Shown piece after piece: positions 40,229 through 42,020 of a stretch of DNA of 64,000 bases. The notes beneath the pieces were generated by a model, which made no database searches, had not been told where the DNA came from, and worked only from the letters and a program-made list of their open reading frames with translations. This DNA comes from a virus (Duplodnaviria; Heunggongvirae; Uroviricota; Caudoviricetes). The stretch spans positions 64,001-128,000 of IMG/VR virus record IMGVR_UViG_3300031414_000001; one strand, given 5' to 3'. How positions within the stretch are numbered: position 1 is the stretch's first letter; the number at the start of each line of letters is the position of its first letter. The position numbers and the translations under genes are program-made.

Positions 40229-41083
40229 ATGAATAAGATGAACCCTTTATCCAAGTACACTAAAGTAGAAGTACTTTACACTAAACTTGTGAGTAATAAT
40301 GTTATTCCTTACCCATCTGGTGTTTTGAATAACGAAACTGTTGAATGCGGTATTTGTGCTCGTTCAGCACGTGATGAACTAATGTTCAACAATCCAGACG
40401 CATTGATTAATGGTGAAGCAGTTGCTAGTGTTATTGAAAACTGTGTTCCTAATATCGCTGATGCTCGTAAACTTTTTGTACCAGATGTAGAATTGCTACT
40501 TATTGGTATTAAAATCGCAACAAAAGAAACTTCATATAATATTGAAGTAGAATGTCCGAACTGTAATCATCATGGTGCGTTTGAACGTAACCTAGAAGCA
40601 CTACTAGCAAGTGCTGAATTACTAGAAGAACAACCTGAACTGCTACTTGAAGAAGTTGGTGGTTTACTATTGAAATTTAAGCCTCATACTTGGGCTGAAC
40701 ATTCTGATTTTAGTCAGAAGATGTTTATTGAACAAAAGAAAGCTCGTTCATTGGAACAAGTTGATTTGAGTGATGAAGAAAAGATGAAGCACTTCAGTGC
40801 TATTTTTGAAGTTATGACTCAATTGAGTTTTGATATGACAGTCGCTAATATCGACTATATTGAAACCGCTGATGGGGATAAAGTAAATGACCGTGCGTTT
40901 ATCGCAGAATGGTTAGGGCAACAGCCAGCATTTATTCTTCGTCAAATTCGTGACAAAGCTGATTTTATTAACAATACTGGTGTTAGTCATGAAATGGAAG
41001 TTGGATGTTCTGAATGTGGCCATGAATGGACACTAGAGAATCTACAATTTGATCCTAGCAGTTTTTTCGTACAAGGCTTCTAA
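40229..41083 (+). CDS. gp26: Baseplate hub assembly protein (T4 gp26-like; start MNKMNP)
   Basis: ARDE, DVELLLIGIK, two CxxC (CPNC, CSEC), terminal SSFF; GGAG SD. Confidence 0.8.
   Translation: MNKMNPLSKYTKVEVLYTKLVSNNVIPYPSGVLNNETVECGICARSARDELMFNNPDALINGEAVASVIENCVPNIADARKLFVPDVELLLIGIKIATKETSYNIEVECPNCNHHGAFERNLEALLASAELLEEQPELLLEEVGGLLLKFKPHTWAEHSDFSQKMFIEQKKARSLEQVDLSDEEKMKHFSAIFEVMTQLSFDMTVANIDYIETADGDKVNDRAFIAEWLGQQPAFILRQIRDKADFINNTGVSHEMEVGCSECGHEWTLENLQFDPSSFFVQGF
41062..41068 (+). promoter_or_regulatory. Candidate -1 ribosomal frameshift site T TTT TTC
   Basis: In-phase X XXY YYZ heptamer; -1 frame open into ORF 41083. Confidence 0.55.
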
Positions 41084-41280
41084 TGGCTGATGCTCAAGAG
41101 ACAATGCAAGAAATAGCTGACCTTCGTTTGAACTGTGAAGAAATTAAGAATGGGTTAATGGAGGTGTCTGTGTACATATCCAATACTAGCTATGAAATGC
41201 TCTTGAATATGCCTGTAACAGATCGTGACCTGATGGTGAAGCAATATAATAAAAAGGTCAAAAAAGAAAACAAACAATAA
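41083..41280 (+). CDS. gp51-like baseplate hub assembly protein / frameshift extension
   Basis: 65 aa, LLNMPVTDR resembles gp51 LExMxPxER; follows gp26-like gene. Confidence 0.6.
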   Translation: MADAQETMQEIADLRLNCEEIKNGLMEVSVYISNTSYEMLLNMPVTDRDLMVKQYNKKVKKENKQ

Positions 41281-41312: not shown

Positions 41313-41340
41313 GTGTCTGAATTTTCTGTACTGTTTGAGA

Positions 41341-41491
41341 TTTGCCATACTTCGTATGTCAAAGAATTTTCGTTGTTCTGTACTTGCTTCGCTGCGTACA
41401 GAACAACTCAATTCAGTTCTATTTGATACGTTTAACACGATTTATACTGACGAGATTTGGGGAGTTTATCATCCCCCGCAAGGGGAATGAT
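41341..41491. repeat. Cluster of intergenic hairpins (possible origin element)
   Basis: Inverted repeats at 41341-41363, 41372-41407 (perfect 12-bp stem) and 41468-41491. Confidence 0.7.
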
Positions 41492-41493
41492 GT

Positions 41494-41970
41494 AAAAAAA
41501 GTACTAATTAAAGTACTCAATTCTGACGATGATAGTCGTCGTTTAATTGTATCGTAAATTTCTATTTTTCAATAGAACGTAAGCGGGTTGATCTGTTTCT
41601 CACTATTACGGTCATATTCAACGGTCGAGGGCTTACCTCACTCAGTACTAAGTCTATACAATCAAACTCAGCACCTATTCTTCTGGAATTTTAGACGGAT
41701 CAATATTGTATAAAATATGACCGCAAAATTCTTCTTCAGAAAAATTCCCTTAGCTATTTGGTAGGGGCGATTCCTATATATCTATCGAGGAAGTTCTATC
41801 AGCTTAGTGAACTTCTTTATAGTGCCGTATTGCCGTGGGTGGTACAAACTATGCCATCTCCTAACGGGTTTCTTCTGCACTGCGAACTGCTTGAACTTCT
41901 CATTGTGCCAATTACTTTTCATCGGCGACTGTTTATTTGTCTACGCTCACGCATAGTCAAGCAGGGTTGT
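41494..41970 (-). ncRNA. Putative structured non-coding RNA of about 480 nt, family unknown
   Basis: Consensus promoter at 41977-42005 with no credible CDS downstream, terminator at 41518-41494, nested helices with G-U pairs and GNRA loops on this strand. Confidence 0.6.
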
Positions 41971-41976
41971 CCTATC

Positions 41977-42020
41977 ATTATACCAGATTTTTTTAGTTCG
42001 TTCCACGATAATTGTAAATA
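41977..42020. promoter_or_regulatory. Back-to-back pre-replicative (-) and late (+) promoters
   Basis: TGGAA-CG-N13-TGG-TATAAT at 41977-42005 (-); TAAATA at 42015-42020 (+). Confidence 0.75.

What the first reader, a model, noticed from the sequence alone, without database searches (positions are those of the whole stretch)
41494..42005. Orphan replication-class promoter drives a ~480-nt structured RNA in the largest intergenic gap
Seen: the 770-bp gap between the gp51-like and Endo VII genes holds a perfect copy of the ten-copy promoter (41977-42005, minus) with no credible CDS behind it, and a minus-strand terminator GAGUACU-UUAAUU-AGUACUU-U5 (41518-41494). Between them the minus strand can form nested helices: 41964-41957 with 41894-41887; CUAUGC-GUGA-GCGUAG (41956-41941, GNRA loop, U-G pair); GCCGAU/AUUGGC (41926-41907); GAAGUUC/GAACUUC (41815-41790); a 14-bp helix 41726-41713 with 41619-41606 enclosing an 8-bp helix 41712-41705 with 41662-41655; UUCUAUU-GAAA-AAUAGAA (41577-41560). 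Several need G-U pairs that would be A-C mismatches on the plus strand, agreeing with promoter direction. I do not recognise tRNA, tmRNA, RNase P or intron motifs. Inference: an unannotated large ncRNA co-regulated with the replisome, e.g. primer RNA, scaffold, ribozyme or protein sponge.
Basis: partly seen in the sequence, partly recalled or inferred. Interest (0 to 1): 0.85.

Follow-up and report, generated by a model that had tools for sequence, protein, structure and literature searches.

The report
Jumbo-phage RNA targets its own DNA
The empty gap encodes a knotted RNA of about 500 letters, unlisted in Rfam and kept in five evenly spaced copies. An 11-letter stretch near its end evolves in lock-step with the DNA just downstream, so it most likely pairs with that DNA to start phage DNA copying (not yet shown by experiment).

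Summary
Real. The phage is Mimasvirus-like. The gap holds a promoter-driven, minus-strand, multi-pseudoknotted non-coding RNA (27 covarying canonical pairs; no Rfam match).

The genome carries five evenly spaced copies. Relatives carry 4-5, and small enterobacterial integrative islands carry one.

Main result: an 11-nt stretch in the RNA (R1, 41533-41523) and a 10-bp direct repeat downstream (R2, 41456-41447) change letter for letter together across 113 copies. Wobble-type mismatches (12 vs 0) say R1 pairs with the template strand at R2. Between them lies an invariant G-run. Beyond R2, 52/52 copies tested carry DNA-type GNA mini-hairpins on the displaced strand.

Best reading (0.6): an RNA-primed, R-loop replication origin. 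It works like ColE1 RNA II or T4 oriF but is homologous to neither. Transcription and replication are untested.

The scan found this family before on other DNA; one note proposed a primer, which steered my tests.

The parts
41977..42005 (-). Promoter: TG(G/A)AAC box, 14-nt spacer, extended -10 TGnTATAAT; start predicted near 41970
   Evidence: present before all five copies and in island copies
41884..41970 (-). RNA 5' domain: pseudoknot 41964-57/41894-87, variable hairpin 41956/41941, hairpin 41925/41908 with invariant GAAAA-GUA loop, 3-bp stem 41899-97/41886-84
   Evidence: covariation
41746..41881 (-). Central domain: helices 41881-77/41825-21, 41867-64/41836-33, 41815-09/41796-90, 41776-73/41765-62; pseudoknots 41830-28/41780-78 and 41804-02/41754-52
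41676..41745 (-). Optional insert carrying a movable 17-nt module; absent from many copies
   Evidence: alignments
41546..41675 (-). 3' domain: helices 41675-64/41655-44, 41640-36/41630-26, 41622-18/41591-87, 41577-74/41563-60; pseudoknots 41662-56/41552-46, 41610-06/41557-53, 41602-599/41583-80
   Evidence: strongest covariation (G up to 215; null maximum 104)
41523..41533 (-). R1 (ATCATCGTCAG): proposed guide in the RNA, in a small hairpin (41540-36/41529-25) whose loop usually exposes the first three letters
41494..41518 (-). Optional terminator-like hairpin plus U-run
   Evidence: 47 of 113 copies
41473..41486 (-). C-tract / invariant G-run hairpin; G-run 41477-41473; only the C side varies (C to U)
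   Evidence: helix 18
41447..41456 (-). R2 (ATCTCGTCAG): proposed DNA target, starting 21-26 nt after the start of the G-run
41408..41446 (-). A+T-rich stretch (26% GC; genome 38%), candidate unwinding element
41372..41407 (-). 12-bp DNA hairpin with a GCGAAGC mini-hairpin (41392-41386)
   Evidence: z -5.3 for 41335-41412
41341..41363 (-). Second DNA hairpin with C-GAA-G loop
41287..41306 (.). Two-way terminator of the convergent baseplate-hub operon (boundary, not part of the element)

Best explanation
Each copy is an RNA-primed origin of replication. Steps: (1) RNA polymerase starts near 41970 [inferred from the promoter]. (2) The transcript folds into a multi-pseudoknotted body [shown by covariation]. 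(3) The body presents R1, which pairs with the template strand at R2, about 77 nt downstream [pairing and direction inferred from concerted change and wobble asymmetry]. (4) With the G-run and the A+T-rich stretch this gives a persistent R-loop [inferred]. (5) A 5'-3' nuclease of the T4 RNase H type, or host RNase H, leaves a 3'-OH for the phage polymerase [inferred]. (6) The displaced strand folds into GNA mini-hairpins that exclude SSB and help load helicase or primase [strand bias shown; role inferred]. Five origins 60-84 kb apart share the 371-kb genome. Integrative islands carry one copy and no Rep gene was seen, perhaps to replicate after excision or during phage infection [speculative].
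For: R1/R2 (113 copies): column 2 is T/T 63, C/C 49, T/C 1, with six changes on the tree, all shared. Columns 5-9 are identical in 113/113 despite concerted changes (C to T; CTTCA in RaK2; CGACA in a Serratia island; CGAAG in a distant phage clade). T/T and C/C copies coexist in one genome, which argues against one binding protein. No third RNA column covaries. Wobble-type mismatches: 12 fit R1 on the complement of R2, 0 fit the reverse; the G/A state needs about 6 changes on the tree. G-run invariant, varying only on its C side. C-GN(N)A-G mini-hairpins downstream: 90 sense vs 3 antisense, 52/52 copies, 7.7 expected. Such hairpins mark ssDNA priming sites of G4, St-1 and RSF1010 (PMC13037366), and ColE1 has a GA-flanked one about 145 nt past its origin on the same strand. 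Even spacing: CV 0.13, P about 0.001; CBB 0.002, BF 0.002, XaC1 0.02, 121Q 0.02. The copy here faces a convergent gene, so it is not a leader. The phage has polymerase, helicase, primase, SSB, a 5'-3' exonuclease and a UvsW-type helicase. Precedents: ColE1 RNA II (PMC5043065); T4 oriF/oriG (PMC3016281).
Against: No transcript, R-loop, RNA-DNA junction or replication data. A 10-bp hybrid with a bulge is short, and R1 column 4 is a G against C or T in 40 of 113 copies. The terminator lies between R1 and R2 in 47 copies, so either read-through or re-invasion by a finished RNA is needed. Same-strand orientation is uninformative (83% of ORF bases are on that strand), and the GC-skew test is inconclusive. 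T4 R-loop origins need only about 100 bp and no fold, so why 450 nt of conserved fold is needed is unexplained. The genomes used for spacing are related, not independent.
Confidence: 0.6

Rival explanations
1. A trans-acting 'ornate' RNA like ROOL or GOLLD (RNA-only cage, scaffold or protein sponge), made as a discrete ~477-nt transcript; several diverged copies raise dose or diversity.
For: Size, several pseudoknots, phage location, no Rfam match. Terminator right after the folded body in 47 of 113 copies. Related phage PA5oct makes abundant ncRNAs of unknown function (PMC7318152).
Against: Does not explain R2 tracking R1 letter for letter outside the terminated transcript, the fixed G-run to R2 distance, the strand-specific DNA mini-hairpins in every copy tested, or the even spacing. 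ROOL and GOLLD often sit near tRNA islands; these copies lie outside the main tRNA cluster.
Confidence: 0.17
2. The RNA pairs with its own DNA at R2, but the R-loop serves something other than priming: a tether for a replication or transcription compartment, a recombination or repair hot spot, or a barrier that controls read-through.
For: All R1/R2 and ssDNA-hairpin evidence fits equally. Two RaK2 copies share a near-identical 3' half and one metagenomic copy is a chimera of two paralogues, so copies recombine. Island copies usually sit next to a recombinase gene.
Against: The island recombinases are of unrelated families (tyrosine and serine), so there is no fixed protein partner. Phage copies have stayed at orthologous sites for a long time. 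Mini-hairpins have their precedent at priming sites.
Confidence: 0.16
3. A cis-acting leader or antiterminator (riboswitch-like, or like the put RNA of phage HK022, from my own knowledge) controlling downstream genes through the optional terminator.
For: The four paralogues lie directly upstream of same-strand genes. An optional terminator sits inside the unit.
Against: This copy faces a convergent operon with a two-way terminator. Downstream genes are unrelated between copies. R2 and the DNA hairpins are unexplained.
Confidence: 0.05
4. Small protein-coding genes, as some GenBank records annotate.
For: Several records-65 aa ORFs here.
Against: The calls differ between close relatives, indels break frames (215 of 264 not multiples of 3), and the covariation is of base-pair type.
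Confidence: 0.02

Closest known systems
ColE1/pMB1 origin: RNA II pre-primer plus n'-pas/ssiA (PMC5043065, PMC3167613; record NC_001371)
   Same: A folded non-coding RNA of about 500-550 nt from an upstream promoter. G-runs near the 3' end; ColE1 repeats its G-run at -265 and -18, an upstream-RNA/downstream-template match like R1/R2. A GA-flanked GNA mini-hairpin downstream on the RNA-like strand. No initiator protein evident.
   Different: No sequence homology. The matching repeat is a mixed 10-11-letter word that varies between copies, not a G-run. Many pseudoknots. 4-5 copies per phage chromosome. No antisense RNA I or Rop found. Optional internal terminator.
Phage T4 R-loop origins oriF and oriG (PMC3016281)
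   Same: Several origins on a T4-like chromosome; promoter plus A+T-rich stretch; same enzyme set (RNase H-type nuclease, UvsW-type helicase, primase, helicase).
   Different: T4 origins are about 100 bp, share little homology and do not need specific sequence in the unwinding element. These copies are homologous, about 630 bp, with a conserved fold and a guide/target repeat.
ROOL (RF03087), GOLLD (RF01998), OLE (10.1101/2024.12.08.627333)
   Same: Large, pseudoknotted RNAs of unproven function; ROOL and GOLLD are phage-borne.
   Different: No match to any Rfam model even at E 10. Multi-copy and evenly spaced, with a conserved downstream DNA module.
ssDNA priming signals with mini-hairpins: G4, St-1, alpha3 origins; RSF1010 ssiA (PMC13037366)
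   Same: C-GNA-G and C-GNNA-G loops on one strand only.
   Different: No primase start site or binding protein identified here; the hairpin sequences vary widely.
Bacterial RNase P RNA
   Same: From memory, a few short words resemble its conserved regions (UAGAUAGA, AACCCGCUU).
   Different: No Rfam RNase P hit. Covariation pairs the would-be P4 5' region locally, not with the 3' word.

Membership tests
ColE1-type replicon | Sequence homology to RNA II | tested here: not met
   nhmmer of a 52-copy profile vs NC_001371: best E 0.11, outside the origin; local alignments P 0.6-1.0; no plasmid hit
ColE1-type replicon | Folded ~550-nt non-coding RNA upstream of the origin | tested here: met
   about 477-525 nt, 27 covarying canonical pairs; the transcript itself not observed
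ColE1-type replicon | Upstream RNA segment matching the template near the origin | tested here: met
   R1/R2 concerted change and wobble direction; comparative evidence only
ColE1-type replicon | ssDNA signal (n'-pas/ssiA) downstream on the displaced strand | tested here: inconclusive
   strand-specific mini-hairpins in 52/52 copies, GA-flanked form in 12; PriA or primase loading not testable
ColE1-type replicon | Antisense RNA I and Rop control | tested here: inconclusive
   no RNAI Rfam hit; no plus-strand promoter-like site inside the gap; an unrelated antisense RNA is not excluded
ColE1-type replicon | Persistent hybrid, RNase H cut and Pol I extension | not testable with these tools
   needs experiment
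T4 R-loop origin | Promoter with sigma70-type -10 plus downstream A+T-rich element | tested here: met
   (26% GC after R2); the A+T stretch lies about 520 nt from the promoter
T4 R-loop origin | MotA-dependent middle promoter | not tested
   the upstream box is TG(G/A)AAC; no search for a MotA gene was run
T4 R-loop origin | Short (~100 bp), sequence-independent unwinding | tested here: not met
   about 630 bp of conserved sequence and fold
ROOL / GOLLD / OLE | Match to the Rfam covariance model | tested here: not met
ROOL / GOLLD / OLE | Self-assembly into RNA-only multimers | not testable with these tools
   needs cryo-EM or light scattering
RNase P RNA | Rfam match and P4 helix | tested here: not met
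Retron / DGR / RT-linked RNA | Reverse transcriptase in the locus or genome | tested here: not met
   no PF00078 match in the genome; none seen beside island copies

The most novel reading that the evidence does not exclude
An RNA-only, self-guided initiator: a folded RNA uses a reprogrammable 10-11-nt guide to invade its own downstream DNA, open it and prime replication without an initiator protein. The phage uses five of these as its origins, and Rep-less integrative islands with defence-type cargo have captured the element to be copied when such a phage infects, as satellites or infection-triggered defence amplifiers.
Probability: 0.3. Interest if true: 0.93.

Novelty: new variant of a known kind. 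Interest (0 to 1): 0.82.

Why it matters
I found no paper that maps the origins of RaK2-like jumbo phages or describes this RNA. Large phage RNAs such as ROOL and GOLLD still lack functions; here comparative data point to a specific, testable job. Natural matched R1/R2 variants (T/T, C/C, CTTCA, CGACA, CGAAG) give a ready single-versus-double mutant test. The same test bears on a point a review calls speculative for ColE1: what triggers persistent hybrid formation (PMC5043065). If right, a structured RNA that recognises DNA through a short guide to start replication has arisen apart from ColE1 and spread to chromosomal islands.

Tried and rejected
Rfam at gathering and E 10 thresholds, and ARAGORN: nothing.

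Homology to ColE1 RNA II, prompted by a remembered resemblance at the 3' end: not significant. RNase P likeness: rejected. RT-linked systems: no RT. Small ORFs: rejected. An RNA partner for R1/R2 within the element: none covaries.

Same-strand orientation and GC skew as origin evidence: uninformative or inconclusive. PA5oct ncRNAs as homologues: no profile match. Vibrio phage 2.275.O: no match by BLAST or pattern.

I did not try another route, so expression, ends and read-depth gradients are untested.

The first viral pattern was too loose and the first genome pattern too strict. mis-picked some repeats; one search has the corrected letter counts. My covariation E-values come from my own tree-based simulation, not R-scape. 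No structure or complex prediction was run, as no protein partner is claimed.

Full report
SETTING. The window is bases 64001-128000 of a 370,971-bp phage genome. The gap is 96% identical to Erwinia phage Kaldavass and 94% to the Mimasvirus XbC2, and it is found at 67-81% in other Mimasvirus, Eneladusvirus and Asteriusvirus phages and their relatives. It lies between a 65-aa ORF behind the baseplate-hub gene and Endo VII. RaK2 lacks the element at this site but has at least two copies elsewhere.

CHECKING THE OBSERVATION. The promoter (42005-41977, minus) and the hairpin plus U-run (41518-41494) are as described. About 27 promoters of this class occur genome-wide, four of them directly before tRNA genes, so 'replication-class' overstates it. 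There is no Rfam, tRNA or tmRNA hit. The minus strand folds at z -3.35 and the plus strand at -2.27. Reading frames are not conserved.

FAMILY. The genome holds five copies, all on the minus strand, at about 21.6, 106.0 (this one), 187.1, 251.5 and 311.7 kb. CBB, BF and XaC1 have five; 121Q, 7t3, Hallingskeid and EJP2 have at least four. Copies largely group by locus on a tree, so the duplications are old. Gaps in this genome are 84, 81, 64, 60 and 81 kb (CV 0.13; P about 0.001 against random placement). Pattern scans added copies from a distant 41-44% GC phage clade, one again beside the baseplate-hub gene, and from enterobacterial chromosomes. In bacteria the element sits in small islands at several unrelated sites. 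The layout is usually a tyrosine or serine recombinase, the element, often a CI/Ner-like pair, then cargo. The E. coli island carries PADLOC defence candidates PDC-M45A and C. No replication initiator, primase or helicase gene was recognised in the 8-30 kb seen; one Serratia island has two ParB/RepB-partition-type genes, and some ORFs have no family.

STRUCTURE. On 104 copies, 34 column pairs reached E 0.5 or better under a tree-simulated null, 27 of them at least 85% canonical; G-U outweighs A-C about 3:1, fixing the minus strand. An independent count on 19 diverse copies gives 90% of cells paired and 60 of 88 pairs with two-sided changes, against about 40% paired for slid controls (the structure was partly derived from these sequences). 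The fold has about a dozen helices and up to six pseudoknots (see parts).

THE UNIT EXTENDS PAST THE TERMINATOR. The terminator is present in only 47 of 113 copies. All 113 keep a C-tract/G-run hairpin and then R2. The G-run (5-6 G in 110 of 113) never changes while its partner strand drifts from C to U, so it is constrained by more than the hairpin. R2 starts 21-26 nt after the start of the G-run, while the R1 to G-run distance varies from 13 to 52 nt.

R1 AND R2. The one strong, repeatable non-canonical signal was the same letter at 41532 and 41455. These lie in two direct repeats, R1 (41533-41523) and R2 (41456-41447), which differ by one extra A in R1. In 113 copies, column 2 is T/T 63, C/C 49 and T/C once (a chimeric copy), with six changes on the tree, all shared. 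Columns 5-9 agree in every copy. Sequences fetched after the pattern was noticed extend it: RaK2 changes two otherwise fixed letters in both repeats, a Serratia island changes one in both, and the distant clade changes three in both. T/T and C/C copies coexist in this genome, which argues against a single binding protein. No other RNA column tracks them. Direct repeats cannot pair with each other, only with the opposite strand. Of the wobble-type mismatches, 12 (R1 G with R2 A, R1 T with R2 C) are G-T pairs if R1 binds the complement of R2, and none fits the reverse. At column 4, R1 has G against C or T in 40 copies, a purine-purine mismatch beside the bulge in this geometry; this is the weak point. 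R1 sits in a small hairpin in 98 of 113 copies (56 expected by shuffling), with its first three letters unpaired in 76, a plausible seed. Inference: R1 in the RNA pairs with template DNA at R2. An antisense RNA partner is not excluded, but no plus-strand promoter-like site was found in the gap. Three phage-like metagenomic copies lack R2 or the G-run and may be decaying.

DOWNSTREAM DNA SIGNALS. Within 160 nt after R2, C-GNA-G or C-GNNA-G mini-hairpins occur 90 times on the RNA-like strand and 3 times on the other, in 52 of 52 copies, against 7.7 expected. The same loops are also enriched inside the RNA body (76 vs 25), at about a third of the density, so they are not diagnostic alone. Such mini-hairpins are unusually stable in DNA, bind SSB poorly and mark the priming regions of G4, St-1 and RSF1010 (PMC13037366). 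ColE1's only GA-flanked one lies about 145 nt past its origin on the RNA II strand, about where I recall n'-pas lies; n'-pas is exposed as ssDNA after priming (PMC3167613).

MECHANISM. Best supported (0.6): an RNA-primed origin. The RNA folds, R1 pairs at R2, an R-loop persists, a nuclease trims a primer, and the displaced strand's hairpins help load helicase or primase. Shown: fold, strand, copy number, spacing, R1/R2 concerted evolution and its direction, strand-specific hairpins. Inferred: transcription, hybrid, cleavage, priming. The phage encodes the needed enzymes. Whether the primer is a read-through transcript or a terminated RNA that re-invades is open. Rivals are a trans-acting ornate RNA (0.17), an R-loop with a non-priming job (0.16), a leader or antiterminator (0.05) and small proteins (0.02).

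COMPARISON. It works like ColE1 RNA II (PMC5043065) and T4 oriF/oriG (PMC3016281). It is not a member of either: there is no homology to RNA II, and T4 origins are short and sequence-tolerant. It is not ROOL, GOLLD, OLE, RNase P or an RT-linked RNA. Literature searches found no description, but the library lacks most subscription papers and candidate-RNA lists outside Rfam were not checked.

EARLIER SCAN NOTES. Notes on other genomes and on another copy in this genome already report the family, its 4-5 copies and the islands, and one proposes a ColE1-like primer. Before reading them I gave an origin 25%. They directed me to paralogues, islands and downstream ssDNA signals, which I then tested.

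VERDICT. A real RNA family absent from Rfam, with good comparative evidence that it pairs with its own downstream DNA; an origin/primer role is likely but unproven. Interest 0.82; new variant of a known kind.

Noticed in passing
L187, L192-L194, L024:3570-5540 (Pseudomonas phage PA5oct 12.9, 76.0 and 246.0 kb): PA5oct's RNA-seq-detected ncRNA004 (PMC7318152) is one of three same-strand copies of a different RNA family with no profile match to ours. One copy occupies the same slot beside the baseplate-hub gene, and two end in a C/G hairpin followed by A+T-rich DNA and a shared hairpin. Possibly a functional analogue with expression data already available.
   Followed up: partly
window 41695-41711; elsewhere in L166, L020, L150, L160: A 17-nt module (ACAATATAGATCCGTC-like) caps either of two different helices in different copies, both in the E. 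coli island copy, and is absent in others: a movable tertiary or protein-binding motif.
   Followed up: no
L199 and L203 (RaK2 191.6 and 280.0 kb): The two RaK2 copies have different 5' halves but near-identical 3' halves and downstream hairpins, suggesting gene conversion between copies. L334 is a chimera of two paralogue types.
   Followed up: partly
L031:2209-3015 (Yersinia phage fHe-Yen9-04): An adenine methyltransferase gene is inserted directly after the element, and the last mini-hairpin loop is inverted. XaC1 has two extra ORFs at the same place (L020).
   Followed up: no
L150:10944-21288; L255-L263, L276, L318, L331: A family of small integrative islands (recombinase, element, CI/Ner-like pair, variable cargo including PDC-M45 defence candidates) in E. 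coli, Citrobacter, Enterobacter, Serratia, Buttiauxella and Silvania. They keep the phage-type promoter.
   Followed up: partly
L283, L289, L298, L317, L320, L329, L330, L342: A distant jumbo-phage clade (41-44% GC) has a strongly remodelled 5' half but the same 3' half, G-run and matched repeats.
   Followed up: partly
genome 361016-361089 and 354265-354342 (outside the window): ARAGORN calls a tRNA with a CUA anticodon (possible amber suppressor) and one with a four-base anticodon loop call.
   Followed up: no
window 41083-41280: The conserved 65-aa ORF behind the baseplate-hub gene (phrog_18291) is left unannotated in RaK2 although similar sequence is present.
   Followed up: no
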